Source of the DNA: a virus
Taxonomy: Duplodnaviria; Caudoviricetes
Strand: one strand, 5' to 3'
Virus record (IMG/VR): IMGVR_UViG_3300036770_005357
Length of the DNA stretch: 64,000 nt
The translations under genes were made by a program, and so were the position numbers. Below, piece after piece: positions 442 to 38,500 of the stretch (the first letter of the stretch is position 1; each line of letters starts with the position of its first letter). The notes below the pieces were generated by a model. It searched no databases and was not told the DNA's origin. It saw only the letters and a program-made list of their open reading frames with translations.

Positions 442-984
442 ATGACAACAAATGTCTTTAATGAGAAACAAATAGTGTGGCAAGAAGCACTAAATAATTT
501 TAGTAAAAAAGAAAATTTAATATTTTTAGAAACGGGTCGAATTAGAAACCCAGACTGGAAAACTAGTGATGGAAATTCAACGGATTTTTTCTCAAATCAA
601 CCGTGTATTAAAAAATGTTATTCAATAGATAACGATTCAGAGAATTTTTCCGGGTTTTCTACAACAGAAGAGTATTGTAGACACATACTAACAAATCATC
701 AGTTATCTAAAATAATTTTTTTAAACGGCAACTCAGTGGATATTATTAAAAAAATAAACGAAAAAATAGATGTTGTTCTGTTAGATTCTCTGAATGATTC
801 AGATTTAATCTTTAACGAATTTATTAATATAATAGAAAAAATATCTTCCGAATCTCTAATTATAGTTGATGATGTAAATGATAAAGGTATAAAAGGTAAA
901 AAAATAATAAAATTACTTGAAAAAAATAATATACCGTTTTTTATAAAAAAGCTAATCCAAATGACTGTTTGTTTTTTTATTTAA
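442..984 (+). CDS. Class I SAM-dependent methyltransferase (Methyltransf_24-like)
   Basis: FLETGRIR motif I-like; VVLLDS and LIIVDD motifs typical of small glycan O-methyltransferases. Confidence 0.65.
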   Translation: MTTNVFNEKQIVWQEALNNFSKKENLIFLETGRIRNPDWKTSDGNSTDFFSNQPCIKKCYSIDNDSENFSGFSTTEEYCRHILTNHQLSKIIFLNGNSVDIIKKINEKIDVVLLDSLNDSDLIFNEFINIIEKISSESLIIVDDVNDKGIKGKKIIKLLEKNNIPFFIKKLIQMTVCFFI

Positions 985-999
985 ATGAAAAATTAGTTT

Positions 1000-1830
1000 A
1001 TGAAATGTTGCATAACAATATTAGTACATAAAAATTATATTGGAAAAATTCAAAATATATTAAATAATTTAAATGAATTTTTTTCACCTAATAACCCAAA
1101 TGTTGACATAATATTCTTTATTGAAAAAAATTGTATCGAATATGTTCCGACAAACTTAAATTATAACGGTGGTAAAATAATTTTTTATCATTTAGATAAC
1201 TTTGAACATAAAAATTTAAAAAATTATAATCAAATTCCCGAAAAAGTTTTTTGGTTTGATATTGGTTATAGAATGATGTGTAAATTTTTTGCGGGAGATA
1301 TATTTACGATACTTAATAACTTAGGATATGATTATAGTATTAGATTGGATACGGATTCTAGATTTTATGCACCAATAAGAAATTTATTTGACGAATTTAT
1401 AAGTTTAGATATGGAGTATGGATATATTTCAATTTATAATGAATGCAATGAACTGTGTGCAAATCTTTCTTGTGAAATAAAAAAATATATATTAAATAAC
1501 AATTTAAAATTCAATAAAAATGTTATAATAGACAATTTACTAGATACAAATTTAGCATATTATAATAATTTTGAAATGTTAAAAACAAAAACATTTTTTT
1601 CAGAAAACCACTTAAATTTATTTAAATATTTAAATGAAATTTCCGATGGATTTTTAAAGTATAGATGGGGAGACTCGTTATTTAGATTTAAATATGTACA
1701 ACTGTTTATACCTAATCATAAAATATATTATTTTGGAAATTTATCGTATTTTCATAAAAGTGATTTAAAAAATAAACCGTTTATTTTACATGATTGGAAT
1801 TTTAATGAATTATTTAAAAAATTATTATGA
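1000..1830 (+). CDS. Glycosyltransferase family 15 (KRE2/MNT1-like alpha-1,2-mannosyltransferase)
   Basis: GYRMMCKFFAG, YSIRLDTDS, YYNNFEM and RWGDS match the GT15 hallmarks YRxMCRF, xxRxE/D, F/YxxNFEI and RWGDA. Confidence 0.8.
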   Translation: MKCCITILVHKNYIGKIQNILNNLNEFFSPNNPNVDIIFFIEKNCIEYVPTNLNYNGGKIIFYHLDNFEHKNLKNYNQIPEKVFWFDIGYRMMCKFFAGDIFTILNNLGYDYSIRLDTDSRFYAPIRNLFDEFISLDMEYGYISIYNECNELCANLSCEIKKYILNNNLKFNKNVIIDNLLDTNLAYYNNFEMLKTKTFFSENHLNLFKYLNEISDGFLKYRWGDSLFRFKYVQLFIPNHKIYYFGNLSYFHKSDLKNKPFILHDWNFNELFKKLL

Positions 1831-2492
1831 GTTATGCACCTGAAGAAAAATTTCTTTTAGAAACTATTTTTAAAAATAAAGACAATGTTCGTTTTTTAAA
1901 AATAGGTGCTCATGATGGAACAACATGTGCATTGTATGAAATAATAAAATCAAATAAAACATGGACCGGAATTTTTTTTGAACCTCACAAAAAATTATTT
2001 GAAGAATTAAAAATTAATTACAATAACGATTTTAGATTTTCTTTTGAGAATTATGCTGTATCTGATAAGGATGAAGAAAAAATATTTTATACATTAAATG
2101 AAAATATTGGAAAAATAGAAGGTAATGATAAAAAACTATGTAAATTCACAGAATTAAATTCTTTTTATGAACCTGTTTTAATGAAATTAAAAGATTATTT
2201 TAAATATACTGAAAAAGATGTAGAATGTAACTTAATAAAATCGGTATCTATAAATTCAGTTTTATATAAATATAATATACCCGTCGATTTAGATTTATTG
2301 TATATAGATACGGAAGGACATGATTTAGTAATTTTAAATAAAATAGATTTCTCTAAATATAGAATAAAAGTTTTAGTCTATGAATTTGATAATTCTAACA
2401 CCGATATGGTTTTAAATTTTAGAAATCAACTTAAAAATTTAGGTTATGATATTTATTCATTTTGGTCCGATGATGTTTGTGTTTTAAAATGA
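1827..2492 (+). CDS. FkbM-family methyltransferase
   Basis: FLKIGAHDG, FFEP, NYAVSD, LLYIDTEGHDLVIL, VLVYE motifs. Confidence 0.9.
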   Translation: MSYAPEEKFLLETIFKNKDNVRFLKIGAHDGTTCALYEIIKSNKTWTGIFFEPHKKLFEELKINYNNDFRFSFENYAVSDKDEEKIFYTLNENIGKIEGNDKKLCKFTELNSFYEPVLMKLKDYFKYTEKDVECNLIKSVSINSVLYKYNIPVDLDLLYIDTEGHDLVILNKIDFSKYRIKVLVYEFDNSNTDMVLNFRNQLKNLGYDIYSFWSDDVCVLK

Positions 2493-3106
2493 AAATTTGT
2501 TTAACAACATTGTACGATAAAAATTTCGAAAAATTTATACCGTATGTTTTAAAATCATTCGAAAATTTTTGTGAAATAAATTCATTTGATATTCAAGTAT
2601 ATGATAAATTATTCGATTCAAATTTACATCCATCGTGGAATAAACTATTAGCAATAAAAGAAAGCTTTAAAAAATATGATGTGGTATTTTGGAGCGATGC
2701 GGATTCTTTATTTACCGGTATAAATGAAAATTTTTTAAAAATAAACGATTTCAATGATCAATCTAATTTTATGGTTACATCCGATGAAAACGGAATTTGT
2801 TTAAGTCATATTCTGATTAAGAATGCGGACTACAATTTAAAATTAATCGATACATTATTGTTTTTAAAAGATGTAAAAAACGATGATCTGTTTGGAATTG
2901 GTCCGAAATGGGAACAGAATTCTCTAAAAGCTTTAATGCAACATTTTAATATAGAATTACAAATCATGCATAAAAGATCCATGAAATGGACTACACCTGA
3001 AATGTTTCATAATGATATTTTCTTCTTTCACTATGCCGTACAAACTAATGATAGTAGATATACAGCAATTAAAAACCATTTTGAAAAGTTATATTTAAGT
3101 AAATAA
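2489..3106 (+). CDS. Glycosyltransferase family 34-like (GMA12/MNN10)
   Basis: SWNKLLAI, VFWSDADS (DxD) and WEQNSL; start moved to ATG 2489, which overlaps the upstream stop (ATGA). Confidence 0.75.
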   Translation: MKICLTTLYDKNFEKFIPYVLKSFENFCEINSFDIQVYDKLFDSNLHPSWNKLLAIKESFKKYDVVFWSDADSLFTGINENFLKINDFNDQSNFMVTSDENGICLSHILIKNADYNLKLIDTLLFLKDVKNDDLFGIGPKWEQNSLKALMQHFNIELQIMHKRSMKWTTPEMFHNDIFFFHYAVQTNDSRYTAIKNHFEKLYLSK

Positions 3107-3847
3107 AACTTTTTGTTCACATCCACCAAACCACCAACTCATCTCAGAAAAGGTGCTAAGTTTTGTTCCGTAAAAATATTTACACTTTGATAGTAACAAC
3201 ATATCTACGAAATCATTTTGAATATCTGATAATTTTTCATCTCGTTCATATGTAATAATGTTAGAATATTTGTTTTTTAAATAAAATTTAAATTTAAAAT
3301 CATCACAGGATAGAAATACATTTTCATTTGTAGAAGATAATTTTTTTTCAAAATTGATGAGATAATGTTCATTTGATTTAGATTTTAAAAAAGTTGACCA
3401 ATCATCATATTCTTTATGGTAAGTAGACCACCAAGTTCTAATATGAAAACCTGTTAAATTATTAATTTGAAAATTATTAACTATATCATGTATTTCTTTT
3501 CTTACTATAAAAGAATTTATTATTGATAATATTTTTTCACGAAATATAGGAGGTATACGATCATATTCCGAATCTACATCTCTACATCTTAAATCTCTTT
3601 CCGGCAAATCAAGAGTAACATTATTAAAATAATCGGGAATTTCAATGTCATCATCTTTTATTATTATTCTCCAAGTACACAATGGTATATAATTAATCGT
3701 CGTATCTAATGTAACAAAATCGTTTTCAAAAATGTCACTAAATTGAGTAAAGTTACTTTTACTTTGATTTGATAATCTTAAAACAGAAATTAAGTTTTTC
3801 AATCTGTTACTCAAACCATTTACAGTTGTTGCCAAATATGCTTCCAT
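3095..3847 (-). CDS. Fucosyltransferase-like GT-B protein (NodZ/GT23/O-FucT-like)
   Basis: GLSNRL, GFHIRT, FLSCDD, DMLLLSKC and STFS motifs; start moved to MEAY at 3847, just after the upstream stop. Confidence 0.7.
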   Translation of the reverse strand: MEAYLATTVNGLSNRLKNLISVLRLSNQSKSNFTQFSDIFENDFVTLDTTINYIPLCTWRIIIKDDDIEIPDYFNNVTLDLPERDLRCRDVDSEYDRIPPIFREKILSIINSFIVRKEIHDIVNNFQINNLTGFHIRTWWSTYHKEYDDWSTFLKSKSNEHYLINFEKKLSSTNENVFLSCDDFKFKFYLKNKYSNIITYERDEKLSDIQNDFVDMLLLSKCKYFYGTKLSTFSEMSWWFGGCEQKVLFT

Positions 3848-3852
3848 AAAAT

Positions 3853-4503
3853 TTATTTCCAACTTTTTTCCCAATGATGTACTGCATATGCCAGTGGAGA
3901 AGTTTCTTTAAAATTTTCGTTTCGTCTATCTATTTCCGTAAACCAATATGGGTAAAAATATTCTTTTGTAAAGAAAAAATATGTAGATTCATTTTTATAT
4001 TGACAAGCAATTTTATTAAAAAATTCAGGGCCTGTTATCTTATGAATTTCACTCGGTAGATAAAAATGATTATCGATTGCAAATCGTATACTAATAGGTA
4101 TAGCATTTATGGCATTTTTTATTAATTCATTATTTTCGGCAGATCCAATAAATCCTATAGCAACTTCATTATTAGTTTGAATACCACCTAGAAAATCAAA
4201 TGATAAAAAACTGTCATTGAGTTTTTTTAAAGGTTCAAAATCAGTATCAAAATATAATCCGCCAAATTTATATAAAATTATATATCTTAATATATCGGCT
4301 TTAAAAGCATGTGCAAACTCGTTATTAAAATAATATTCATGTAAAAAATCAGGTATTAAATTATTTTTAATTACATCACCATCTGTCCACAATATTACTC
4401 GGTAATCATCATAAATAGACTTAAACGCATTAATGTTTTTCAAAGAATATTCCGGCAGCGGATTATTTCCAACCCATATAAAATGCAAAACTTTTGGTAT
4501 CAT
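3853..4503 (-). CDS. Glycosyltransferase family 32 (OCH1-like, DxD)
   Basis: IPKVLHFIW, KADILRYIILYKFGGLYFDTD, TGP and HHWEKSW. Confidence 0.9.
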   Translation of the reverse strand: MIPKVLHFIWVGNNPLPEYSLKNINAFKSIYDDYRVILWTDGDVIKNNLIPDFLHEYYFNNEFAHAFKADILRYIILYKFGGLYFDTDFEPLKKLNDSFLSFDFLGGIQTNNEVAIGFIGSAENNELIKNAINAIPISIRFAIDNHFYLPSEIHKITGPEFFNKIACQYKNESTYFFFTKEYFYPYWFTEIDRRNENFKETSPLAYAVHHWEKSWK

Positions 4504-5189
4504 TATTCGATCAAACTTTTAAATACTAAATTTTCGGGTTTGTTTTCTTTTTCTCTAAATGAAAGTTGTTTACATATTATTTCATTCGGAATATAACATT
4601 TCATGACCTCTTTTTTCTTTTCACATTTACAAATATGCGTGAAATAGTTGATTATAAAATCTATAGGAATCGTCGATGATATGATTTTTTCCGCAATTGT
4701 ACTTAATATATTTAAACCATTAAACGCAATCATATGCGTGGTCCAACTTACTTCGGCGTCGGATACATATTTATTAATTTCTGTAAACTTCCAAAATCCA
4801 TCATATTTTTTATGATGATAACCAAAATTTAATATATTCCAACAATTATCAACATTTTCCATAAAATTTAAAAATTTAATTTCATAATCTTTTTCAAAAA
4901 CAATATCATCTTCCAGTATTAAAATTTTATCTTTTTGCATATAAATACATTCTTTTAATATTGATAAATAACAAAGACACAAACTAATTTCATTTGAATT
5001 AGTTATTCTAGGCGAATTCCACAAATCTTTAACCGGATAATTATTTAAAAAATGAGACGGCACGGCAGTTCTAATTTCAAAAGATAAATCATTTTTTTTT
5101 AAATAATCGATTATATATTTTTGCCGTTCAGTATCTACCGATGTAGTTATTACATAGACATCTTTGAAAAAATTATTAATAATATTCAC
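4503..5189 (-). CDS. Glycosyltransferase family 25-like
   Basis: YVITTS..ERQ, EISLCLCY..IL, ILILEDDIVF, WTTHMIAF. Confidence 0.8.
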   Translation of the reverse strand: MNIINNFFKDVYVITTSVDTERQKYIIDYLKKNDLSFEIRTAVPSHFLNNYPVKDLWNSPRITNSNEISLCLCYLSILKECIYMQKDKILILEDDIVFEKDYEIKFLNFMENVDNCWNILNFGYHHKKYDGFWKFTEINKYVSDAEVSWTTHMIAFNGLNILSTIAEKIISSTIPIDFIINYFTHICKCEKKKEVMKCYIPNEIICKQLSFREKENKPENLVFKSLIE

Positions 5190-5210
5190 ACAAATATGTA
5201 GTTTATATAA

Positions 5211-6128
5211 ATGAAAAAAATAAATATTTTAACATATAATAATGGCGTTGGTATAGTTACAGATGCATTTCTTTTAAAAAAAATTATAGAGAATAACATT
5301 ACTGAGAATGTGACCGTGGAATTCATAAATGAAGATATAAAAAACGCAGATGTTGGGGTTTGGATTCAAAACTTTGATATAAATCATCTTTCTAATTTCA
5401 AAAAAAACATATTTTTTATAAATGAAGAATGGTCTGGGACACAAGAGCTAAACAACTTAAATTTATTCGATCATGTAATTTGTAAATCTAAATATGCTTA
5501 CAACTTAATAATCAATTATACTAAATTTAATAAAAATATAATATATATACCGTTTGTTTCACGGAATTTTCATGATAAAAACATTTCTAAAAATAGAAAA
5601 TGCCTACATTTCATGGGTAGATCGATTCAAAAAAATACTGAAGTGGTTTTAAACCAAAATGTAAATATAACTTTAATTGATCCATATAACAGATACAGAC
5701 CGAATACAAACTTTGATCACATCAATACTTATCAAACAGATGAACAAATAAATTATTTATTAAATTCACACAATATACATATATGCTGCAGTTTATATGA
5801 AAGTTGGGGACATTATTTATTTGAAGGGTTATCTACAGGTGCAGAAATAATATGTAGTGATATACCCATATTTAAAGAACAATTAGATCCGGATCTTGTA
5901 CATTTCATACCAACACAAGAAAAAATAGATACATCATATTTGTATTGTTCTGATAATGTAGATAATAAATTTATGATTAGAAAATCTTTTTTTGTAAATG
6001 AAAATTATTTTAAAAATTATATTGAAAATTTTAAACCTATTGGTAAATATGAAGAACGAATAAAATTATTTAACAATATTATAGATAATAATTCAAAAAA
6101 AATAGTAAATTTTTTCAAGAATATATAA
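5211..6128 (+). CDS. GT-B glycosyltransferase (GT4-like)
   Basis: HICCSLYESWGHYLFEGLSTGAEIICSD matches the Ex7E nucleotide-sugar-binding motif. Confidence 0.75.
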   Translation: MKKINILTYNNGVGIVTDAFLLKKIIENNITENVTVEFINEDIKNADVGVWIQNFDINHLSNFKKNIFFINEEWSGTQELNNLNLFDHVICKSKYAYNLIINYTKFNKNIIYIPFVSRNFHDKNISKNRKCLHFMGRSIQKNTEVVLNQNVNITLIDPYNRYRPNTNFDHINTYQTDEQINYLLNSHNIHICCSLYESWGHYLFEGLSTGAEIICSDIPIFKEQLDPDLVHFIPTQEKIDTSYLYCSDNVDNKFMIRKSFFVNENYFKNYIENFKPIGKYEERIKLFNNIIDNNSKKIVNFFKNI

Positions 6129-6917: not shown

Positions 6918-6918
6918 A

Positions 6919-12986: not shown

Positions 12987-12992
12987 AAAATA

Positions 12993-13730: not shown

Positions 13731-13770
13731 ATAACTTAATATTACTACACTTTCTCTTTTGTTCAATTTT

Positions 13771-14178: not shown

Positions 14179-14183
14179 AACAA

Positions 14184-16712: not shown

Positions 16713-16716
16713 TCGT

Positions 16717-23100: not shown

Positions 23101-23105
23101 TTAAA

Positions 23106-25166: not shown

Positions 25167-25176
25167 ATTTTTAGTT

Positions 25177-28409: not shown

Positions 28410-28759
28410 AAATGCCAATATCAGAAATAGCAGATAGATATAGTATAACTCTTTTAAAAAGTGAACGAATTGAAGGAGTAAATCTAACAGATGAATTAAA
28501 TGCCTATTTACAAGAATTAAATAAGTACGAAGGTATACAAAGTTATTTAGAAAGACTGTATCAGATAAACGGAGAAATTTGGGATTTGGAATCCGACATT
28601 AGAAAAGGTAAGGAGAATATACTCGGACTTGAAGAAGTTGGTAGACGAGCAATTATGATTCGAGGTAAGAATAAGATTCGAGTTGGAATTAAAAATGAAA
28701 TGGTAGAGAAATACGAAGAAGGATTCAAAGATATAAAAATGAATCATGCTAGTGTATGA
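28406..28759 (+). CDS. DUF6165/DUF4254-like helical protein
   Basis: ISEIADRYSITLLK, LYQINGEIWDLESDIR, NKIRVGIKNE. Confidence 0.65.
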   Translation: MKMPISEIADRYSITLLKSERIEGVNLTDELNAYLQELNKYEGIQSYLERLYQINGEIWDLESDIRKGKENILGLEEVGRRAIMIRGKNKIRVGIKNEMVEKYEEGFKDIKMNHASV

Positions 28760-32055: not shown

Positions 32056-32828
32056 TGAAAAACATAATATTTATCCCAGCAGTAATTTCTGACAAAGGAG
32101 AAAAAAAGTTGAGAAACACTCCTTTAATCAAAAAAATATTTGACTATAGTATACGAAGTTGGAAATACTTTGCTAATAAACATAATTGTACAGTAGTTGT
32201 TTTAGACGAACCAATATTAGATACTAATGTTACTAGTATGGCGTGGCAAAGATATTATGTTTTAGATTTATTGGAACAAAGTAATATTAAATACAATCAA
32301 GTCTTAATAGTAGATGCGGATACTATTGTACATCCAAATTGTCCTAACTTTTTTGAATTAACTGAAAACAAATATACCGGCGTACACGATGGTGTAGTAT
32401 ATGAATGGGTAATGAGAAGTGTAGAGTGTTACAGCAAATTATTATTTAACAACTATAACTTAAATGTTTGGAATTATATTAATGGTGGATTTCAAATAAT
32501 CAACGAATCACATAAAAATCATATAAATAAGTTCAAAGAATTTTATATAAATAACCGAGAGGAAATTTATCAAGTTGAATCCAATATAAAATTAGGTACA
32601 GATCAAACACCTATGAATTTCTTTCTACAAATAAATAATGTTGATACTAAAATTCTACCGTATGAATTTAACATGACGGGATTACATCTATCTGAAGGTT
32701 TGAACGAAGATTTAATTTTTACAAATTTAGGATGGGTTTATCATTTTAATGGTATACCTGATGAAACTTACGGTTCAAAAGTAGAATATTATATGAATAA
32801 AACTTTTAAAAAATTGTATGATAACTAA
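32055..32828 (+). CDS. Glycosyltransferase family 8-like (tandem paralogue)
   Basis: IVDADT, YINGGFQI, DQTPMN, YHFNG; TAATG coupling at 32053-32057. Confidence 0.8.
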   Translation: MKNIIFIPAVISDKGEKKLRNTPLIKKIFDYSIRSWKYFANKHNCTVVVLDEPILDTNVTSMAWQRYYVLDLLEQSNIKYNQVLIVDADTIVHPNCPNFFELTENKYTGVHDGVVYEWVMRSVECYSKLLFNNYNLNVWNYINGGFQIINESHKNHINKFKEFYINNREEIYQVESNIKLGTDQTPMNFFLQINNVDTKILPYEFNMTGLHLSEGLNEDLIFTNLGWVYHFNGIPDETYGSKVEYYMNKTFKKLYDN

Positions 32829-33780
32829 AAAGAACATCAATGGAAATCCAGAATTTGGTTGTGAGTTAACTTTAACCCTACCATATGCATATCATCTCCA
32901 TCTAAAGAATGAATTGGGAACCGTTAGAACTGTTAAAGGCATGAAACCATTTTATTTTTTTACAGACCAAATTGAAGAATATTATAATGATCGATCTGTA
33001 GATAATAAAGTGGCTTTAAAAGATGTACCGAATAATTGGATACACCACAATGCATTAGCAATAACCGGTAAAGATTATAGTGAACTAACAGACGAAGAAA
33101 AAAGAAATGTAAATGGTGTATTAGATTATAGAGAATGGACTCCACCTCCCATAAGGGAACATTATCTTAAAAATAATGAAATAAATATAAAAGAAAAATT
33201 CGTAGTAATATGCAATAGATTTAATCTTGAACACGGACACTTTCCATATGGATACTTTGATATTCCACTTTTACAAGATATCTTTGAATACTTTAATAAA
33301 ATTAATTACAAAGTAATTTATAAACGACCTGAAAATAATGAATTTCCAGTTGATTGTAATGAAACTAGTGATATCATAAATAAATACGGCATTAAAGCAG
33401 AAGATGCAAATGGAAATGTTGTTGATGATAAACAAATAAGCCGAATGTATGATAATGTTATCGTATTTGATGATTTACATAAAGAATATTCACATTTATC
33501 TTACAATGTTTTTCAATTACAATTATTTTCTAAATCTTCCGGTTTTATTTCGATGGGAGGTGGAAACACCCTATTGAGTTGTTATTTTAAACAACCTGTA
33601 GTTTCTTATTTTACTACTACAAAAGAAATGAGAGATAATTACTTTGGTAAAAATTCCTATTATAGGAAACTTTCAAATTGTGATTTTTATCCAATAAAAG
33701 ATCCAGAAAAAAATATACAAGAAAGAGGATATAGAGATTACACGGAATTATTAGAAACAATAAAAACAGTTTTTAAATGA
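32818..33780 (+). CDS. Hypothetical protein, possibly GT-B (GT9-like)
   Basis: PEFGCEL..LPYAY, VVICNR, FISMGGG; cluster context. Confidence 0.4.
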   Translation: MITKKNINGNPEFGCELTLTLPYAYHLHLKNELGTVRTVKGMKPFYFFTDQIEEYYNDRSVDNKVALKDVPNNWIHHNALAITGKDYSELTDEEKRNVNGVLDYREWTPPPIREHYLKNNEINIKEKFVVICNRFNLEHGHFPYGYFDIPLLQDIFEYFNKINYKVIYKRPENNEFPVDCNETSDIINKYGIKAEDANGNVVDDKQISRMYDNVIVFDDLHKEYSHLSYNVFQLQLFSKSSGFISMGGGNTLLSCYFKQPVVSYFTTTKEMRDNYFGKNSYYRKLSNCDFYPIKDPEKNIQERGYRDYTELLETIKTVFK

Positions 33781-34703
33781 AAAACAAGAAAATATTTATC
33801 ACAGGAGGAGCAGGCTTTTTAGGTAAAAATATCGTCAAAAGATATTATGACGATAATGAAATAACTGTATTTAGTCGTGATGAAGCAAAACACTATTATT
33901 TAAAAAAGCAATTTCCTAAAATAAAATGTGTTGTTGGTGATATAAGAAATTATGATCTGCTTAAAAGAAGCAGTAAAAATCACGAAGTAGGAATATTTGC
34001 TGCAAGTTTAAAGCAAATTGAAGCTGTCGATCAAAATGTTGAAGAATCGGTAAAAATTATAATTAATGGTGCCATTAATAGTAGAAGAGTCTCTGAAGAA
34101 AATAATTTTGAATCTGCATGTTTCATTTCTTCTGATAAAAGTCGATCCGCTACAACGCTTTATGGATCTATGAAATTCGTCGCAGGTGAAAGTTTTATTG
34201 TAAATTCAGACGCAAATTTCCCAAAACTAAGCACGGCTATTTACGGAAATGTATTAAACTCGACAGGTAGTATAATTCCACTAATTTGGAACGCTTTACA
34301 AAACAAATATGCATTAAAATTGTATTCTACGGAAATGACTCGATTTATGATATCAGTCGATGAGGCTATTGATTTAATAGAAGCTTCATTAAAAGTTAAT
34401 GGGTATAATGTAATACCCGAAGTAAAAAGTTTTCGTATACAAGATTTATTTGAAATATACGCCGAATTATTTGGTTTGAAATACGATGTAGATAAACCCC
34501 GAATTTCAGAAAAACTCCACGAAATCATGATATCGAGTGAAGAAATACCGCGTGTTAAAAAAGAAGATGCATATTTTTATATGCATTACAAAGAAACATA
34601 TAATCGAGTATCGTTTCCAAATAATGAATTCTCTAGTAAAGATGTATGTATAAGTAAAGAAAAACTAAACAATATTTTGAAATCCTTTAATTATTTTGAA
34701 TAA
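33777..34703 (+). CDS. Nucleotide-sugar 4,6-dehydratase (CapD/PseB/FnlA-like)
   Basis: TGGAGFLG, FSRDEAK, GDIRN, AASLKQ, SSDK, YGSMK, YGNV..STGS, MTRF. Confidence 0.9.
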   Translation: MKNKKIFITGGAGFLGKNIVKRYYDDNEITVFSRDEAKHYYLKKQFPKIKCVVGDIRNYDLLKRSSKNHEVGIFAASLKQIEAVDQNVEESVKIIINGAINSRRVSEENNFESACFISSDKSRSATTLYGSMKFVAGESFIVNSDANFPKLSTAIYGNVLNSTGSIIPLIWNALQNKYALKLYSTEMTRFMISVDEAIDLIEASLKVNGYNVIPEVKSFRIQDLFEIYAELFGLKYDVDKPRISEKLHEIMISSEEIPRVKKEDAYFYMHYKETYNRVSFPNNEFSSKDVCISKEKLNNILKSFNYFE

Positions 34704-35928
34704 TATGTATCCAGAGTATAAATTAAGAACCAGTTGTGCAATTTGTAAAAATTTAGAACTAAAAACAATTTTTGATTTCGATGAAATATCTTTAGCGGGA
34801 AATTTTCCAAAAAAAGATGAACTAAATCACTGTAAAAAATATCCTTTAAAATTAAAATATTGTACAAACTGTTCTTTGGTACAGACAGATAGTATAATTA
34901 ATTCGGATTTTTTATTCAAAGATTATCGTTACATGTCATCTATAGGTTTAAGTAAACATTTTTCTTCTGTAGCAATGTTGTACAAAGAAAAGTTCGGCTT
35001 AAATAATAACAGTAAAGTATTAGAAATAGGATCCAATGATGGAGTTTTATTAAAACCATTCATGGATTTAGGTATACCGTGTATGGGATTTGATCCATCC
35101 ATAAATATATCTAAAGTAGCACAAGAAAAGGGATGTAATGTAATTGTAGATTATTTTAGCAAAACGACGGCAACTAAATACCTAAAAGAAAATGATTATG
35201 ACATAATTTGTTCAAATAATTGTTTTGCACATATCGATGACATTCATTCTATACTGGAAGGAGTATCATATAGTTTAAAACCAGATGGACATTTCATAAT
35301 TGAAGTACATTATTTAAAAAACTTAATCGAACAGTTACAATATGACTTCGTATATCATGAACATTTATATTATTACTCGTTATCAGCTTTAAATTATTTA
35401 TTTAATTTACACGGATTATCAATTGTAGATTTTGAAGAAATCTCTATTCATTCGGGTAGTATAAGAGTATACGCTTCAAAAAATAAAAAAACAAATGAAA
35501 AGGTGGATAATCAATTAAATTTTGAAAAAAATATCGGAATGACAAATTTTGAGTATTTTGAAAATTACAGTCTCAAAGTTAAGAACCATATCATTTCTTT
35601 ACAAAATATAATAAAAAATTTAAAGAACGAAGGTTTTACTATAGCTGGGTACGGTGCATCTGGTCGAGGTAATGTGTTACTTAACATGTGTAAGTTTACT
35701 TCAAATGATATATCATTTATAATAGATGAATCACCCGAACGTTACGATCGTTATGTAGGTGGTACTGACATTCCCATATTCAATAAAAACTATTTAAACT
35801 TAAATAAACCGAATTATATTTTAATTTTGGCTTGGAACTATTCGGATATGATAATGGAAAAATTAAAATCCGAAAATTTCAAATATATAATTCCTTTTCC
35901 AACTGTAAAAATTCACTGTATTCCGTGA
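34696..35928 (+). CDS. NDP-hexose 3-C-methyltransferase
   Basis: Zn-binding CAIC..CTNC, LEIGSNDG, NNCFAH, YHEHLYYYS, GYGASGRG, LILAWNY. Confidence 0.92.
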   Translation: MNNMYPEYKLRTSCAICKNLELKTIFDFDEISLAGNFPKKDELNHCKKYPLKLKYCTNCSLVQTDSIINSDFLFKDYRYMSSIGLSKHFSSVAMLYKEKFGLNNNSKVLEIGSNDGVLLKPFMDLGIPCMGFDPSINISKVAQEKGCNVIVDYFSKTTATKYLKENDYDIICSNNCFAHIDDIHSILEGVSYSLKPDGHFIIEVHYLKNLIEQLQYDFVYHEHLYYYSLSALNYLFNLHGLSIVDFEEISIHSGSIRVYASKNKKTNEKVDNQLNFEKNIGMTNFEYFENYSLKVKNHIISLQNIIKNLKNEGFTIAGYGASGRGNVLLNMCKFTSNDISFIIDESPERYDRYVGGTDIPIFNKNYLNLNKPNYILILAWNYSDMIMEKLKSENFKYIIPFPTVKIHCIP

Positions 35929-36722
35929 AGATTTTAATACTAGGACATAAAGGAATGTTAGGACATATGGTGATGAAATATGTATCTCACCTTCAGATAA
36001 ATCATGAAATAATAGAACAACGATGGCCATCAAATGAATTCACGGAATCAATTAAAAATTCTAATTCAGACTTTTTAATAAATTGTATAGCATGTATTCC
36101 ACAAAAATATTCTACATGGAATTTATATAAAGAAACAAATATCGATTTACCGATTTTTTTAATAAAAAATTTCAACGGTAAAATAATAAATCCCACATCC
36201 GATTGTGAGTTTTCTGGAAATATAAAATTAGGCAAGTTTTACGAAAAAAACCATATGAAAGATGTTACAGATGATTATGGAATAAGTAAATCACATACAA
36301 CAAATATTTTATTAAACTATAATAATGTAAAACAAATAAGATCTTCATTAATAGGACCGGAAATAAAAGGTAAAGTGTGTTTAATGGAATGGTTTTTTAG
36401 ACAAAATAAAGATATACACGGTTATAATAACCATTATTGGAATGGTATAACTACCTTAGAATGGACAAAACAGTGCTTAAAATTAATAGAGAACTGGGAT
36501 AGATCGGATAACTTAATTCAGTTAGGTACAACTCCCATAACTAAGTATGATCTTTTATGTTTTTTAAATAAAATATTTGAATGTAAAAAAAACATAATAT
36601 CTATTAGTACGGAGTTTATTAATAGAAGTTTAAAAAGTGACTATTTAATAAAGAATATTGAAGATCAATTAATTGAGTTAAAACAGTTTTATTATGAAAA
36701 TAAGTTTCATTCAGCCGAGTAG
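35925..36722 (+). CDS. RmlD-like NDP-4-keto-6-deoxyhexose reductase
   Basis: GTG start overlapping the upstream TGA; ILGHKGMLG, INCIA, SDCEFSG, YGISK, IRSSLIGPE, WNGITT. Confidence 0.85.
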   Translation: MKILILGHKGMLGHMVMKYVSHLQINHEIIEQRWPSNEFTESIKNSNSDFLINCIACIPQKYSTWNLYKETNIDLPIFLIKNFNGKIINPTSDCEFSGNIKLGKFYEKNHMKDVTDDYGISKSHTTNILLNYNNVKQIRSSLIGPEIKGKVCLMEWFFRQNKDIHGYNNHYWNGITTLEWTKQCLKLIENWDRSDNLIQLGTTPITKYDLLCFLNKIFECKKNIISISTEFINRSLKSDYLIKNIEDQLIELKQFYYENKFHSAE

Positions 36723-37896
36723 AAATAACCTAAAATATCTTAAATGGAGTTATGAAGCTATTCGTAAAAATCTAAGCCATAAAGAACACGAAATATGTGT
36801 AGCAGACGATTTTAGTAATGATGGTACAGAGGATTGGTGTAAAGAAACCGCAGCAAAAGATCCAAATTTTAAATATATTCGTAATAACGGTCCAACTCGG
36901 TTGGGACATACTATTTTATATGATCGTTTAATCAATGAAGTTGCAACTAATGATGTGGTAATGATCTACCACGCAGATATGTACGCATGTCCTAATTTTG
37001 ATAAATATGTTGAAAAATATATTCAACCAGGCACAATTGTTAGTTTAACTCGTATAGAACCACCTCTACATCCACCAGGACCAGAAAAAATTTGTGTTGG
37101 ATTTGGTCAAGAGCCAGAAGAGTTTAAGGAACAAGAATTCTTAAAATGGTTCAAAGATACCAGTCTATCCCGTAAAGATAAAACCACAGAGGGTATTTTT
37201 GCGCCGTGGGCCCTTTATAAGAAGGATTTCCAATCTATAGGAGGTCATGATGAACTATATGCACCTCAAAGTAAAGAAGACAGTGATATATTTAATCGTT
37301 TCTTACTTAATGGTTATAAGTTTATTCAGACATGGGAAGGTTGTGTATATCATATGACTTGTAGAGGCAGTAGATATAATCCAACTATCACCACTGTAGG
37401 TAAAGAAAGTGACGAATGGTTAGCTCAAAACAATCGTAGTGCTAGAAACTTCATTCGTAAGTGGGGTCACTTTGTTAAACACAATGATACAATGAAACCT
37501 ATCGTACCTAAACGATATGATATTGGATTCGTTGTTAAGAATTGTGATGCTTATAAATTAGCTTTGTTAGAACCGTGGTGTGATACAATCTATACCGATG
37601 TACCATATGATCAATACATCAATATTGAACAAAAAAATACTAAGTTTGATTTAGATAAGAAACTCAAACGATATGAAGATCAAAAGATTAATGATGTTAT
37701 CATAGAATTTGATGCTAATAAATTAACCAACGAAAGTTTTGAATTTTTTAACTCGTTACAACTTATACTCGAAGATAGTGGTCAAATAGGTGATTCTGAA
37801 TTTGATATATTTAAATTAAAAATAAAAAATTTAAGTGATTATAGTAAAAACTTAATAAGTATTAACGATAATTGGTACAAAAATAAATTATTGTAA
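36694..37896 (+). CDS. Glycosyltransferase family 2
   Basis: SFIQPSRN, ADDFSNDGT, YHADM, GGHDE, EDSD, VYHMTCRG. Confidence 0.9.
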   Translation: MKISFIQPSRNNLKYLKWSYEAIRKNLSHKEHEICVADDFSNDGTEDWCKETAAKDPNFKYIRNNGPTRLGHTILYDRLINEVATNDVVMIYHADMYACPNFDKYVEKYIQPGTIVSLTRIEPPLHPPGPEKICVGFGQEPEEFKEQEFLKWFKDTSLSRKDKTTEGIFAPWALYKKDFQSIGGHDELYAPQSKEDSDIFNRFLLNGYKFIQTWEGCVYHMTCRGSRYNPTITTVGKESDEWLAQNNRSARNFIRKWGHFVKHNDTMKPIVPKRYDIGFVVKNCDAYKLALLEPWCDTIYTDVPYDQYINIEQKNTKFDLDKKLKRYEDQKINDVIIEFDANKLTNESFEFFNSLQLILEDSGQIGDSEFDIFKLKIKNLSDYSKNLISINDNWYKNKLL

Positions 37897-37909
37897 CTAA
37901 ACAAATATC

Positions 37910-38500
37910 ATGAACATAGAAAAAATTCTATCGATATTACCAGATAAATTTGCTAGTAAACGAACCACCTCAAAAAAATTTAAAACGGATCTTTACAACT
38001 TTTTTAACGAAGAAAAATATAAAGACTTTAAATGTGCTGAATTAGGCATTTTTAATGGCGATTCTACACTTTTATTATGTAATTTATTTAAACATGTAAT
38101 TGGAATAGAATATTCACAAAAACAAATTGATATAGCTACAAATTTTTTAAAAAAGAATAATTTAAATAATTTTGATTTTTTACTTCACGATTTATATAAT
38201 CGAAAATTTCCATATGTCGGTGAAATAGATGTTTTTATGATTGACGCTGTACATACGTATGAATGTGTTAAAATAGACACATTTAATTGTATAAATAGTA
38301 AAAAAGAATCTTCGATTGAAAACAAAAAATTATACTTTATATACGACGATTATGGTGCATTTCCCCCAGTTAAACAAGCAGTCGATGAACTAATTTCATC
38401 GAATGTTTTATCCGTAGTTAAAAAAATAGGATATATGCCTGGAGAAAATTTTGTAAACAAATTATTTGATTATGAAGGCATAATTTGTATAGAAACATAA
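37910..38500 (+). CDS. Class I SAM-dependent methyltransferase
   Basis: AELGIFNGDST, GIEYS, FMIDAVHTY, IYDDYG. Confidence 0.85.
   Translation: MNIEKILSILPDKFASKRTTSKKFKTDLYNFFNEEKYKDFKCAELGIFNGDSTLLLCNLFKHVIGIEYSQKQIDIATNFLKKNNLNNFDFLLHDLYNRKFPYVGEIDVFMIDAVHTYECVKIDTFNCINSKKESSIENKKLYFIYDDYGAFPPVKQAVDELISSNVLSVVKKIGYMPGENFVNKLFDYEGIICIET

What the first reader, a model, noticed from the sequence alone, without database searches (positions are those of the whole stretch)
442..38500. Phage-encoded glycan factory of about 38 kb: about 20 glycosyltransferases, 9 methyltransferases and nucleotide-sugar enzymes
Most ORFs here are glycosyltransferase-like (GT2, GT4, GT8, GT15, GT25, GT32, GT34, FucT-like, several unclassified GT-A/GT-B), sugar-type methyltransferases (FkbM, TylF, several Methyltransf_24, a C-methyltransferase) or donor-synthesis enzymes. 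No flippase, polymerase or ABC exporter is visible, so this does not look like a captured O-antigen or capsule locus. Inference: a self-contained system building a heavily methylated complex glycan on virion proteins, conceptually like chlorovirus and Mimivirus host-independent glycosylation, or one remodelling the host surface or DNA. This is the best candidate for an undescribed system in the window.
Basis: partly seen in the sequence, partly recalled or inferred. Interest (0 to 1): 0.85.

Follow-up and report, generated by a model that had tools for sequence, protein, structure and literature searches.

The report
Giant phage sugar-chain gene islands
An uncultured large aquatic phage really does carry about 15-20 sugar-transferring and 9 methyl-adding enzyme genes, made of a small cassette shared by its whole lineage plus two fast-changing islands, and they most likely build a strain-specific methylated sugar coat inside the infected cell, probably on the phage's own particle, though the target is unproven.

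Summary
Of 48 ORFs in 442-38500, 16 are supported glycosyltransferase ORFs (15 enzymes, one split in two), 9 are methyltransferases and 5 are sugar-nucleotide or radical-SAM enzymes. Four more are weak GT leads.

It is phage DNA, not a misassembled bacterial locus. A PolB/clamp-loader block sits in the middle. About 80 IMG/VR relatives are syntenic, and contigs from three other studies cover it.

It is not one uniform factory. A lineage-conserved operon head (nuclease, RHH, split GT-B, GT-B, GT2) plus a GT4 beside the clamp loader is shared with Microcystis phage Mel-JY01 and Flavobacterium phage immuto. Two hypervariable islands flank it. Relatives hold 124 protein clusters at these sites, and 97 are absent here.

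No polytopic membrane protein occurs in these islands in any relative, so assembly is cytoplasmic.

The system is not self-contained: it has no sugar nucleotidyltransferase. DNA is an unlikely target. No hydroxymethylase gene was found, and published LC-MS of immuto DNA shows no glycosylated base.

Virion glycosylation is my favoured reading (about 0.45). Host envelope remodelling is the main rival.

The kind is known from P-SSM2-type cyanophage "LPS" clusters, and this scan has flagged similar phage islands on other DNA, including relatives.

The parts
442..984 (+). Methyltransf_24-like SAM methyltransferase (below Pfam cut-off)
   Evidence: 24.3 bits against a cut-off of 26.3. No homologue in 80 relatives' flanks.
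1000..1830 (+). GT15-like (Kre2/Mnt1-type) GT-A glycosyltransferase, compact 276-aa soluble form
   Evidence: PF01793 33.7 bits, above the cut-off of 25. Only 40 homologues in 5.8 billion proteins, and all carry PF01793.
1827..2492 (+). FkbM-family methyltransferase
   Evidence: PF05050 56.9 bits. A paralogue lies at G000 21821-22453.
2477..3106 (+). GT34-like GT-A glycosyltransferase, preceded by the late-type motif
   Evidence: PF05637 32 bits, above the cut-off of 23. TATTTAT[AT] lies 19 nt upstream.
3095..3874 (-). Unknown 259-aa protein; faint fucosyltransferase hint only
   Evidence: phrog_32718, unknown function. O-FucT E 0.052.
3853..4503 (-). GT32 (DXD sugar-binding region) glycosyltransferase
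   Evidence: PF04488 48.6 bits.
4503..5189 (-). GT25 (LOS/LPS-type) glycosyltransferase, with the late-type motif upstream
   Evidence: PF01755 33.3 bits, above the cut-off of 24. Motif 29 nt upstream.
5211..6128 (+). GT4-like GT-B glycosyltransferase (just below cut-off)
   Evidence: PF00534 25.2 bits against 26.4. Found in 8 loci; dN/dS 0.12.
6174..6968 (-). GT13 (GNT-I-like) GT-A glycosyltransferase
   Evidence: PF03071 30.7 bits, above the cut-off of 25.4.
6919..7632 (-). Methyltransf_24 methyltransferase
   Evidence: 36 bits.
7629..8513 (-). Unknown 294-aa protein; possible GH130/DUF1861-type beta-propeller (hint)
   Evidence: DUF1861 E 0.008. A relative fuses GT4 to a GH130-like domain (L049). 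No PDB profile hit. dN/dS 0.16.
8564..9514 (-). Radical-SAM/SPASM-like enzyme (below cut-off)
   Evidence: PF04055 26.4 bits against 29.5. NCBIfam hits are weak. 91% identical in L013; dN/dS 0.06.
9897..10547 (-). Class I SAM methyltransferase
   Evidence: Methyltransf_23/11/31, 52-54 bits.
10939..12033 (-). Lineage-conserved GT4 beside the clamp loader; the inner end of island A
   Evidence: PF00534 35.5 bits. Present in 57-63 of 80 loci. In relatives it is an 850-1090-aa multidomain protein.
12030..16947 (-). Replication block that interrupts the glycan genes: clamp-loader ATPase, 277-aa conserved protein, 135-aa protein, family B DNA polymerase, 76-aa ORF
   Evidence: Pfam AAA/DNA_pol3_delta2 and DNA_pol_B. 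Conserved in 49-80 loci. Syntenic with Mel-JY01.
16973..17584 (+). Methyltransf_24/CmcI-type O-methyltransferase; a strain-variable inserted gene
   Evidence: 48.8 bits. Found in only 7 loci. Contigs of runs X6 and X7 join 16947 to 17596 without it.
17586..18320 (-). Late gene for a 244-aa protein with a signal-peptide-like N-terminus; probably not a glycosyltransferase
   Evidence: Late motif 5 nt before the start. N-terminus MKRLISIFSMAFALCA. No PDB profile hit. Only a 1.8e-4 self-hit to the GT32 gene.
18379..19260 (+). PD-(D/E)XK (Cas4-like) nuclease, first gene of the conserved + strand operon
   Evidence: PF12705 90 bits. In 70 loci. 38-39% identical to Mel-JY01 and immuto genes at the same position.
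19306..19521 (+). 71-aa ribbon-helix-helix-like protein at the head of the GT cassette (inferred from the sequence pattern)
   Evidence: Conserved in 59-60 loci with a TTVKL..ELY..FK....QDFVNKCL pattern. The RHH assignment is inference, not a family hit.
19518..20063 (+). N-terminal Rossmann half of a split GT-B glycosyltransferase
   Evidence: 59% identical to the N-part of immuto gp90 (480 aa). Fused in 11 distant loci and split in 58, with varied gaps and frames and its own SD/ATG. dN/dS 0.03.
20067..21032 (+). C-terminal half of the split GT-B (GT4)
   Evidence: PF00534 46.5 bits. 40% identical to the C-part of immuto gp90.
21029..21763 (+). dUTPase with an insertion; a housekeeping gene embedded in the cassette
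   Evidence: TIGR00576 73.8 bits in two stretches. Absent from this position in Mel-JY01 and immuto.
21766..23100 (+). Lineage-conserved 444-aa GT-B glycosyltransferase
   Evidence: PF00534 21.7 bits, below the cut-off. 43% and 41% identical over 96% of its length to Mel-JY01 and immuto ('glycosyltransferase, RfaG'). Paralogue of 10939-12033.
23097..23753 (+). Lineage-conserved GT2 glycosyltransferase, last gene of the conserved cassette
   Evidence: PF00535 51.9 bits. In 59-62 loci. 38% identical to Mel-JY01 and immuto.
24180..25166 (+). NAD-dependent sugar epimerase/dehydratase/reductase (GalE-like SDR)
   Evidence: PF01370 165 bits. All NCBIfam equivalog hits fall below their cut-offs, so specificity is open.
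25135..26465 (+). Two O-methyltransferase genes (weak CmcI/Methyltransf_24-like, then TylF) that form a strain-variable cassette
   Evidence: TylF 119.9 bits. Contigs of X6 and X7 join 25100 to 26453 with 67 other letters between.
26458..28409 (+). Two unclassified ORFs (314 and 336 aa); GT-A leads only
   Evidence: The nearest Atlas clusters with a family are GT2/CgtA/GT7C-like (0.93-0.97), and all are phage clusters. No support from Pfam, PHROGs, a PDB profile or hhalign.
28756..29697 (+). Pfam-less GT-B fold glycosyltransferase from a very abundant metagenomic phage family
   Evidence: 4249 homologues with no Pfam hit. AF2 pLDDT 90.7. Foldseek matches GT4, BshA, GtfC/Gtf3 and T4 AGT at E 1e-8 to 1e-6, TM 0.6-0.7. 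Profile against BshA E 7e-4.
29684..30487 (+). Short NDP-sugar dehydrogenase (N-terminal and central domains, no C-terminal domain)
   Evidence: TIGR03026 157 bits, matching positions 67-298 of 413. GxGxxG lies at the N-terminus. A 262-aa homologue has the same length; dN/dS 0.19.
31300..32828 (+). Two paralogous GT8-like GT-A glycosyltransferases
   Evidence: Paralogues at 1e-22. 315 representative homologues. The profile hits glycogenin (7e-4), a GT8 (1.7e-3), PBCV-1 A64R (8e-3) and LgtC (0.06). DxD and NSG/DQ motifs are in the consensus.
32818..33780 (+). Pfam-less GT-B superfamily protein, GT9 (heptosyltransferase)-like
   Evidence: 636 homologues, including Tara and GOS. pLDDT 90.7. Foldseek matches GT9/WaaC/TibC, TagF and UDP-GlcNAc 2-epimerase at E 1e-4 to 1e-3, TM up to 0.49. 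The Atlas lead is GT9.
33777..36722 (+). Three-gene sub-pathway: PseB/FnlA-like NDP-hexose 4,6-dehydratase, sugar C-methyltransferase, weak SDR (putative ketoreductase). Inferred to make a C-methyl-branched 6-deoxy sugar.
   Evidence: Polysacc_synt_2 134 bits and PseB 156 bits (below the equivalog cut-off). Methyltransf_14/13/23 at 132/45/74 bits. Epimerase E 0.006. The pathway order is inference from these families.
36694..37896 (+). GT2 glycosyltransferase with a GT7C-like tail
   Evidence: PF00535 46.4 bits. 83% identical in L081.
37910..38500 (+). SAM methyltransferase (below cut-offs)
   Evidence: Methyltransf_25/24 at 25 bits. In 21 loci.
38516..38911 (+). 131-aa protein with about 4 hydrophobic segments at the end of island B; unexplained
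   Evidence: Kyte-Doolittle hydropathy scan. No Pfam family hit, GtrA included, at E 0.5 or better apart from DUF1360 E 0.038.

Best explanation
The region is a genuine phage-encoded, export-less, cytoplasmic glycan-assembly system with two layers.

Layer 1 is conserved across the lineage. It is one operon head made of a PD-(D/E)XK nuclease, an RHH-like protein, a GT-B split into two polypeptides, a 444-aa GT-B and a GT2. A further GT4 sits beside the clamp loader.

Layer 2 is two hypervariable islands (about 442-10955 and 23758-38500). They are filled with soluble GT-A and GT-B enzymes of many families, O- and C-methyltransferases and NDP-sugar tailoring enzymes.

Proposed mechanism:
- Host UDP- and GDP-sugars are tailored. 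Steps include Gmd just upstream of the window, 4,6-dehydration, C-methylation, reduction and oxidation.
- Soluble glycosyltransferases add the sugars one by one to an acceptor in the cytoplasm.
- Methyltransferases, which come and go between strains, decorate the sugars.

I think the acceptor is most likely a phage-encoded protein of the particle (Ser/Thr-rich fibres or head/tail surface proteins). The conserved enzymes would build an inner core and the islands a strain-specific outer glycan. This is a phage counterpart of chlorovirus and mycobacteriophage virion glycosylation.

Shown: gene content, phage origin, the conserved-versus-variable architecture, the absence of membrane machinery, and purifying selection.

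Inferred: the sugar chemistry, the order of steps and the acceptor.
For: Phage origin:
- The window lies in a 173-kb IMG/VR record.
- PolB, clamp loader, RecA, DnaB, RNR and the clamp-loader A subunit are interleaved with the glycan genes.
- It is syntenic with Mel-JY01 and about 80 viral contigs.
- Near-identical contigs occur in three other studies.

Conserved cassette:
- It is shared at 37-59% identity, in the same order after the nuclease, with Microcystis phage Mel-JY01 and Flavobacterium phage immuto.
- Their hosts belong to different phyla, and each cassette is followed by different sugar genes. A phage-intrinsic acceptor explains this most simply.

Hypervariability:
- The two island positions in relatives hold 124 protein clusters; 97 have no homologue here.
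- Those 97 are again MT24, FkbM, GT2, GT61, GT11, GT25, GT6, Anp1, NodZ, DegT and NTP-transferase families.
- Methyltransferase genes are gained or lost as gene-sized units between near-identical strains.

Soluble pathway:
- No GT has a membrane segment, and the only polytopic protein in the record is Amt.
- 0 of 322 island ORFs in relatives is polytopic.

Functional constraint: dN/dS is 0.03-0.29, similar to PolB at 0.10. dS is saturated, so the ratios are rough.

Links to the particle:
- A sulfotransferase and an Anp1-like paralogue are translationally coupled downstream of the giant fibre genes.
- The late-gene motif TATTTAT[AT] (38 found against 3 expected) precedes the GT34 and GT25 genes and an Anp1-like gene.
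- Fibre proteins are 23-36% Ser+Thr against a median of 12%.

Against DNA as target: see the rival explanations.
Against: - No glycoprotein data exist for any member of the lineage.
- The islands sit in the replication module, not the structural module as in mycobacteriophages.
- The 21-kb + strand block from 18379 onwards has almost no intergenic gaps and no late motif. It looks co-transcribed with a nuclease and a dUTPase, which points to early or middle rather than late expression.
- GT25, GT32, GT8 and GT9-like enzymes are classic LOS/LPS-core families. They act on lipid A-core at the inner leaflet and need no dedicated flippase.
- Both cultured hosts are Gram-negative-type cells, so a conserved host acceptor is not excluded.
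- Ser/Thr-rich fibres are common in phages that are not known to be glycosylated.
Confidence: 0.45

Rival explanations
1. Host-envelope remodelling. The soluble GTs and MTs modify host lipid A-core/LOS, lipid-linked precursors or other envelope glycans at the cytoplasmic face. Host transporters such as MsbA, Wzx or ABC systems then export the product. The result changes the cell surface during infection, for example to block superinfection by other phages or to alter grazer recognition. This is the standard reading of cyanophage 'LPS' clusters.
For: - The literature reading of P-SSM2-type clusters (15-gene cluster, at least 8 GT families, polymorphic between related phages) is production of diversified outer polysaccharide (PMC7824862; PMC12801897).
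- LOS/LPS-type families are present: GT25, GT32, GT8-like, GT9-like.
- Hypervariability resembles O-antigen/LOS loci.
- The operon organisation with replication genes fits early expression.
Against: - The cassette is conserved between phages of Cyanobacteria and Bacteroidota, whose envelopes differ.
- Not one initiating transferase, flippase, polymerase, ligase or ABC permease appears among 322 island ORFs across the lineage.
- A lytic phage has little time to benefit from re-coating the host.
- Some glycan genes carry the late motif or sit in the fibre operon.
Confidence: 0.33
2. DNA hypermodification. The conserved GT-B/GT2 cassette next to the nuclease, dUTPase and polymerase glycosylates phage DNA, as T4 alpha/beta-glucosyltransferases and the multi-GT systems on 5-hmC do. 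The nuclease would degrade unmodified host DNA.
For: - The cassette lies in the replication module, behind a nuclease and around a dUTPase.
- A T4 gp1-like dNMP kinase is nearby.
- The GT-B model of 28756-29697 matches T4 alpha-glucosyltransferase among its top hits, but GT4 enzymes match equally well.
Against: - No ThyA-family hydroxymethylase is found in this record, in two complete relatives (296 and 365 kb) or in Mel-JY01. ThyX is present.
- Published HPLC-UV-MS of immuto_2-6A DNA shows canonical dA, dC and dT, with dG replaced by formyl-preQ1. No glycosylated nucleoside was seen, yet immuto carries the cassette (bioRxiv 10.1101/2023.04.13.536721).
- About 20 GTs with O- and C-methyl sugar tailoring far exceeds any known DNA glycan.
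- The record is only about 73% complete, so absence of a gene is not proof.
Confidence: 0.06
3. Another soluble acceptor. The enzymes would make a free or lipid-anchored methylated oligosaccharide, a glycolipid, or a glycosylated small molecule. Deoxysugar, C-methyl and TylF/FkbM enzymes recall antibiotic sugar pathways. The product would serve host takeover, storage-carbon diversion or signalling.
For: - TylF, FkbM and C-methyltransferase families and the 4,6-dehydratase/ketoreductase logic are typical of natural-product deoxysugar pathways.
- A GH130/DUF1861-type hint and a GT4-GH130 fusion in a relative recall mannoside phosphorylase or mannogen-type metabolism.
- Iyer et al. propose a secondary-metabolite cluster in some cyanophages.
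Against: - No aglycone-forming enzymes (PKS, NRPS, terpene) were seen in the ORFs scanned.
- The number and diversity of GTs points to a complex heteroglycan rather than one or two sugar additions.
Confidence: 0.12
4. Artefact: a bacterial polysaccharide locus wrongly joined to phage DNA during assembly.
For: Low-GC island A (24-26% against 31-34% in the replication block) could suggest foreign DNA.
Against: - Glycan genes are interleaved with phage replication genes on both sides and share overlapping start/stop junctions.
- The same architecture occurs in two cultured phage genomes and about 80 viral contigs.
- Independent runs cover all 30 bins of 14001-34000.
- A protein identical to 32818-33780 lies on a 305-kb contig.
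Confidence: 0.01

Closest known systems
'LPS' / capsular-polysaccharide-modification gene clusters of jumbo T4-like cyanophages (P-SSM2, S-SCSM1, S-SCSM2R; Iyer et al. 2021, PMC7824862; PMC12801897)
   Same: - Large blocks of paralogous GTs from many families plus NAD-dependent epimerases/dehydratases and O-methyltransferases.
- Polymorphic between related phages.
- No experimental function.
   Different: - It belongs to a different phage lineage (nearest cultured: Mel-JY01 and immuto).
- It is larger: at least 15 supported GTs in the window, against 13 claimed as a possible record for a marine phage.
- No nucleotidyltransferase was found.
- It is anchored by a cassette conserved across host phyla.
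- It includes a split GT-B and a C-methyl-sugar sub-pathway.
[quoted passage not shown]
   Same: - Homologous nuclease, GT-B, GT-B, GT2 core in the same order (37-59% identity).
- The core is followed by variable sugar genes.
   Different: - Those phages carry only about 5-8 further sugar genes of different kinds (WecE aminotransferases, acetyltransferase, WcaG).
- The first GT is fused in immuto.
- There is no dUTPase inside the cassette.
- immuto uses PolA.
Mycobacteriophage virion glycosylation (Che8, Corndog, Myrna; Freeman et al. 2023, as cited in PMC12619734)
   Same: Phage-encoded soluble GTs, with an O-methyltransferase in some, presumed to act in the cytoplasm on phage proteins.
   Different: - Those cassettes have 2-4 genes and sit inside the structural module.
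- Their glycans on capsid and tail-tube C-termini were shown by mass spectrometry.
- Here the genes sit in the replication module, number about 30, and no glycoprotein is shown.
Chlorovirus (PBCV-1) and Mimivirus host-independent glycosylation
   Same: - Virus-encoded soluble GTs and GDP-sugar enzymes (GMD).
- Methylated 6-deoxy sugars.
- A conserved core with variable decorations.
- The GT8-like profile weakly hits PBCV-1 A64R (E 0.008).
   Different: - Those are eukaryotic giant viruses.
- Their glycan structures have been solved chemically.
- The resemblance here is at gene level and by analogy only.
T4 alpha/beta-glucosyltransferase DNA modification
   Same: GT-B enzymes encoded among early or replication genes.
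   Different: That system requires hydroxymethyl-cytosine synthesis, which was not found here. One or two GTs suffice for it. DNA of the relative immuto shows no glycosylated nucleoside.

Membership tests
Jumbo-cyanophage LPS/capsular-polysaccharide modification cluster (P-SSM2 type, Iyer et al. 2021) | One or more paralogous GT genes from several distinct GT families | tested here: met
   GT2, 4, 8-like, 9-like, 13, 15, 25, 32 and 34.
Jumbo-cyanophage LPS/capsular-polysaccharide modification cluster (P-SSM2 type, Iyer et al. 2021) | 1-4 NAD-dependent epimerase/dehydratase paralogues | tested here: met
   24180-25166, 33777-34703 and (weak) 35832-36722, plus Gmd upstream of the window.
Jumbo-cyanophage LPS/capsular-polysaccharide modification cluster (P-SSM2 type, Iyer et al. 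2021) | Complete sugar activation: sugar kinase plus nucleotidyltransferase | tested here: not met
   PF00483 is absent from the 173-kb record while the control genomes ring. A sugar kinase was not searched for. The record is about 73% complete.
Jumbo-cyanophage LPS/capsular-polysaccharide modification cluster (P-SSM2 type, Iyer et al. 2021) | Sporadic presence and polymorphism between related phages | tested here: met
   124 clusters at the two sites, 97 not in this genome. Gene-sized indels occur between strains.
Jumbo-cyanophage LPS/capsular-polysaccharide modification cluster (P-SSM2 type, Iyer et al. 2021) | Carried by group 2.1 T4-like cyanomyoviruses | tested here: not met
   PolB is 28-31% identical to the Synechococcus phage enzymes. 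The nearest is Mel-JY01 at 44%. The core GT occurs only in Mel-JY01 and immuto among 50,697 phage records.
Mycobacteriophage-type virion glycosylation cassette | GT (and O-MT) genes embedded in the virion structural module next to capsid or tail-tube genes | tested here: not met
   The islands flank PolB and the clamp loader. Only the sulfotransferase and an Anp1-like gene outside the window lie in the fibre operon.
Mycobacteriophage-type virion glycosylation cassette | Glycans demonstrated on virion proteins | not testable with these tools
   This needs glycoproteomics of purified virions.
Chlorovirus/Mimivirus host-independent glycosylation | Virus-encoded soluble GTs without membrane or export machinery | tested here: met
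   Hydropathy scans.
Chlorovirus/Mimivirus host-independent glycosylation | Virus-encoded nucleotide-sugar synthesis (for example GMD) | tested here: inconclusive
   Gmd scores 354 bits, below the equivalog cut-off of 415, at G000 84844-85962. No nucleotidyltransferase was found.
Chlorovirus/Mimivirus host-independent glycosylation | Glycan chemically shown on the major capsid protein | not testable with these tools
   No virion material is available.
T4-type DNA glycosylation | Synthesis of a hydroxymethyl-pyrimidine (ThyA-family hydroxymethylase) or a TET/JBP oxygenase | tested here: not met
   PF00303 is absent in G000, G001, G008 and Mel-JY01. PF12851 is absent, but its control was silent.
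T4-type DNA glycosylation | Glycosylated nucleosides in virion DNA | not testable with these tools
   Published LC-MS of the relative immuto shows none. This phage has not been tested.
Bacterial O-antigen/capsule locus (Wzx/Wzy or ABC type) | Initiating phosphoglycosyltransferase, flippase, polymerase or ABC permease (all polytopic) | tested here: not met
   No polytopic ORF in the region. Amt is the only one in the record. 0 of 322 island ORFs in relatives is polytopic.
Seroconverting phage Gtr cluster (GtrA/GtrB/Gtr-type) | Small 4-TM GtrA flippase, membrane-anchored GT2 GtrB and a polytopic serotype-specific GT | tested here: not met
   The 4-TM ORF 38516-38911 has no Pfam family hit (GtrA included) at E 0.5 or better apart from DUF1360 (E 0.038). 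The neighbouring GT2 has no membrane segment, and there is no polytopic GT.

The most novel reading that the evidence does not exclude
A whole lineage of large aquatic phages, infecting at least Cyanobacteria and Bacteroidota, glycosylates its own virions without host glycosylation machinery. A conserved GT trio lays down an inner core on a phage protein. Two hypervariable islands then generate strain-specific, heavily O- and C-methylated outer glycans. These would amount to virion 'serotypes' that evolve like bacterial O-antigens.
Probability: 0.4. Interest if true: 0.85.

Novelty: new variant of a known kind. Interest (0 to 1): 0.6.

Why it matters
The role of the large 'LPS-like' sugar gene clusters in big aquatic phages has been open since they were first seen in cyanophage P-SSM2.

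This locus is the richest example I could find. It has at least 15 supported glycosyltransferases and 9 methyltransferases in 38 kb.

The comparison shows that it is built on a small cassette shared with two cultured phages, immuto on Flavobacterium and Mel-JY01 on Microcystis. That makes the question testable at the bench: stain and analyse their virions and the host LPS.

If the target is the virion, glycan coats would be a widespread and rapidly diversifying feature of environmental phages. That would bear on adsorption, on defence evasion and on how phage particles interact with grazers and mucus.

The locus also exposes several abundant GT families without a Pfam model. One has more than 4000 metagenomic members.

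Tried and rejected
- Megablast of 20 kb against 50,697 phage records found no match.
- PHROGs on ten ORFs without a Pfam hit returned only unknown-function families.
- PDB profile searches for the 27399, 17586 and 7629 families found nothing. The 32818 family gave only chance-level hits.
- hhalign of the 27399 family, 26458 and 30491 against the window's GT2 and GT8-like profiles gave no signal. These ORFs stay unclassified.
- The weak self-hit of 17586-18320 to the GT32 gene was dropped. That protein has a signal-peptide-like N-terminus and a late motif.
- The sense-strand T4 late promoter TATAAATA is barely enriched (8 found against 3.3 expected).
- The sigma-70 and terminator consensus scans are at chance level (157 against 149, and 147 against 139). 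They were not used to define operons.
- The Tet_JBP search gave no hit, but the control was silent, so it is uninformative.
- No RNA holder is listed for this stretch, so nothing can be said about expression. Read laying used contigs only, so depth was not interpreted.
- The in-frame stop between the two GT-B halves was considered as readthrough or recoding. It was rejected because relatives have different gaps and frames, each with its own SD and ATG.
- Freeman et al. 2023 could not be read here. It is cited only through PMC12619734.

Full report
**1. What the DNA is**

The window is bases 92041-156040 of a 173,066-bp IMG/VR viral record that CheckV rates about 73% complete. A protein identical to 32818-33780 also lies on a 305-kb contig, so the true genome is probably larger.

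The record is 32% G+C and 95.5% coding. It encodes:
- family B DNA polymerase, clamp-loader subunits, DnaB-type helicase, RecA, a 5'-3' exonuclease, a class II ribonucleotide reductase and UvdE
- ThyX, an RNA ligase and an Amt ammonium transporter
- giant fibre proteins

The nearest cultured phage by PolB is Microcystis phage Mel-JY01 at 44% identity. Eighty IMG/VR contigs carry PolB at 53-89% identity.

**2. The observation**

Pfam scans of all ORFs from 442 to 40295 give 11 glycosyltransferase ORFs:
- GT15, GT34, GT32, GT25 and GT13
- four GT4/GT1-type, two of them below Pfam's cut-off
- two GT2

They also give 9 methyltransferase ORFs:
- FkbM, TylF and a sugar C-methyltransferase
- four Methyltransf_24/CmcI-type
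- two class-I type
- three of the nine score below the cut-off

Other sugar-related genes are a GalE-like SDR, a PseB/FnlA-like 4,6-dehydratase, a short NDP-sugar dehydrogenase, a weak SDR and a weak radical-SAM enzyme. NCBIfam places none of the sugar enzymes above an equivalog cut-off, so their exact substrates are open.

I then worked on the ORFs without a Pfam hit:
- 28756-29697 belongs to a family of more than 4000 metagenomic proteins with no Pfam domain. With an alignment it folds at pLDDT 90.7. It is a GT-B enzyme by Foldseek (GT4, BshA, GtfC/Gtf3, T4 AGT; E 1e-8 to 1e-6) and by profile search (BshA 7e-4).
- 32818-33780 (636 homologues) folds at pLDDT 90.7. It matches GT9 heptosyltransferases, TagF and UDP-GlcNAc 2-epimerases. 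All are GT-B superfamily, with E about 1e-4 to 1e-3 and TM up to 0.49.
- 31300-32055 and 32028-32828 are paralogues. Their family profile hits glycogenin, another GT8, PBCV-1 A64R and LgtC.
- 19518-20063 is the detached N-terminal Rossmann domain of the GT encoded by 20067-21032.

This gives 16 ORFs and 15 enzymes with support. Two further ORFs have only language-model leads to GT-A families, and two have faint hints. In total, 30 of 48 ORFs are glycan-related with support, and 34 if the leads and hints are counted.

**3. It is phage DNA and the genes are functional**

The glycan genes overlap or abut replication genes on both sides. The arrangement recurs in two cultured phage genomes and in the viral contigs. 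Contigs from runs of three other studies cover every bin of 14001-34000. For every glycan gene that has a 55-97% identical homologue, pairwise dN/dS is 0.03-0.29, against 0.10 for PolB. dS is saturated, so these figures are rough.

**4. Architecture: a conserved core and two variable islands**

tblastn of every window protein against the 80 loci separates two classes.

Present in about 57-70 loci:
- the GT4 at 10939-12033
- the run from the PD-(D/E)XK nuclease (18379) through a 71-aa protein, the split GT-B, the dUTPase, the 444-aa GT-B and the GT2 (to 23753)

Nearly everything else from 442-10955 and 23758-38500 is in 0-21 loci.

[quoted passage not shown] In immuto the first GT is a single 480-aa protein. 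The split is old and real. Fifty-eight loci have two genes with differing gaps and frames and their own ribosome-binding site; eleven more distant loci have the fused form.

The 71-aa protein has a ribbon-helix-helix-like pattern. That assignment is my inference, not a family hit.

Within only 10 kb either side of PolB, the relatives hold 124 protein clusters of at least 150 aa at the two island positions, and 97 have no homologue in this genome. Those 97 are again dominated by Methyltransf_24, FkbM, GT2, GT61, radical SAM, GT11, GT25, DegT aminotransferases, Anp1, GT6, nucleotidyltransferases and NodZ.

Turnover is visible even between near-identical strains. Contigs of two other studies lack the methyltransferase gene 16973-17584 and the methyltransferase pair 25135-26465. 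Island A is also lower in G+C (24-26%) than the replication block (31-34%).

Counts of four Pfam families in 11 longer relatives show that all but one carry several GT and epimerase genes. This genome is at the high end, especially for methyltransferases.

**5. How it probably works**

No GT or MT has a membrane segment. The only polytopic protein in the record is Amt. None of 322 island ORFs in relatives is polytopic. Assembly therefore takes place in the cytoplasm, by sequential transfer from nucleotide sugars.

The record has no sugar-1-phosphate nucleotidyltransferase and no DegT aminotransferase. The starting donors must be host UDP- and GDP-sugars, so 'self-contained' is not right.

Tailoring steps I infer from the families:
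- GDP-mannose 4,6-dehydratase just upstream of the window (354 bits), with an SDR, gives GDP-6-deoxyhexoses.
- The contiguous 4,6-dehydratase, C-methyltransferase and SDR (33777-36722) gives a C-methyl-branched 6-deoxy sugar.
- A short dehydrogenase may give a uronic acid.
- TylF, CmcI, FkbM and Methyltransf_24 enzymes give O-methyl sugars.

The conserved enzymes plausibly build an invariant inner part, and the islands a variable outer part.

**6. Which acceptor?**

DNA is unlikely. No ThyA-family hydroxymethylase is present here, in two complete relatives or in Mel-JY01. HPLC-UV-MS of immuto DNA, published in another context, shows canonical dA, dC and dT plus formyl-preQ1 in place of dG, and no glycosylated nucleoside. 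Yet immuto carries the cassette.

That leaves the virion or the host envelope.

For the virion:
- The cassette is conserved between phages of Cyanobacteria and Bacteroidota.
- Export genes are completely absent.
- A sulfotransferase and an Anp1-like gene are coupled to the fibre operon.
- A late-gene motif is strongly enriched before late genes (38 against 3 expected). It precedes the GT34 and GT25 genes and an Anp1-like gene.
- The fibres are very rich in Ser and Thr.

For the host envelope:
- This is the usual reading in the literature.
- LOS-type GT families are present, and they need no dedicated flippase.
- The 21-kb + strand block looks co-transcribed with a nuclease and a dUTPase and has no late motif.

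I put the virion at about 0.45, the host envelope at 0.33, other soluble acceptors at 0.12 and DNA at 0.06.

**7. Novelty**

Large GT/epimerase clusters in jumbo cyanophages are known. P-SSM2 has a 15-gene cluster with at least eight GT families, and 13 GTs in S-SCSM2R were proposed as a possible record. This scan has flagged many phage GT/MT islands, including the same operon in relatives.

What is new here:
- the size of the complement
- the conserved cassette shared across host phyla and with two cultured phages
- the extreme clade-wide turnover at two fixed sites
- the split GT-B
- several abundant GT families without a Pfam model

I class it as a new variant of a known kind, of moderate to high interest. 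It turns an old open question into an experiment that can be done with existing phage-host pairs.

Noticed in passing
window 44501-45685 (-): A lone Druantia DruA-like gene (PF14236, 81 bits) carried by the phage among early genes. No other Druantia genes were seen nearby.
   Followed up: no
window 17616-17644 (-) and 16947-17596: A perfect 12/12 sigma-70-type promoter on the - strand points at the 76-aa ORF/PolB operon. The methyltransferase gene 16973-17584 lies between the two in the opposite orientation. Strains in two other studies lack that gene and have only TTAATT between 16947 and 17596.
   Followed up: partly
whole record G000; in the window before 2477, 4503, 17586, 41837, 50435, 51103, 58455 and 59829: The coding-strand motif TATTTAT[AT] lies within 40 nt upstream of start codons 38 times, against 3 expected. 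It is mostly before fibre and other late genes. It is the reverse complement of the T4 late promoter.
   Followed up: partly
L084:2786-5387 (G000 22786-25387, -): A sulfotransferase (PF13469, 60 bits) and an Anp1/GT62-like paralogue are translationally coupled directly downstream of the 2768-aa and 1332-aa fibre genes. This hints at sulfated or glycosylated fibres.
   Followed up: partly
L083:13676-15133 (-): The phage encodes an Amt-family ammonium transporter (381 bits). It is the only polytopic membrane protein in the record.
   Followed up: no
L087:685-3309 (+): An SNF2-type helicase is interrupted by an intein (Hint plus LAGLIDADG homing-endonuclease domains).
   Followed up: no
L087:4844-6380 (+): GDP-mannose 4,6-dehydratase is followed by a NifU-like Fe-S scaffold protein (160 bits). 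Gmd-like genes occur in most relatives searched.
   Followed up: partly
window 29684-30487 (+): An NDP-sugar dehydrogenase is reduced to its N-terminal and central domains (267 aa, no C-terminal domain). A relative has the same short length, and it is under purifying selection. Its activity is unclear.
   Followed up: partly
window 38516-38911 (+): A small 131-aa protein with about four hydrophobic segments closes island B. It has no GtrA or other family match.
   Followed up: partly
L041:18745-21882, L069:18292-21555, L027:14844-17405, L049:6065-8119: In relatives the clamp-loader-adjacent GT4 is part of 680-1090-aa multidomain proteins. One has a GH130-like (mannoside phosphorylase fold) domain and one has a weak second GT2-like domain.
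   Followed up: partly
window 32818-33780: An identical protein is recorded on a 305,194-bp contig, so the real genome is probably over 300 kb. The 73% completeness estimate may be too high.
   Followed up: no
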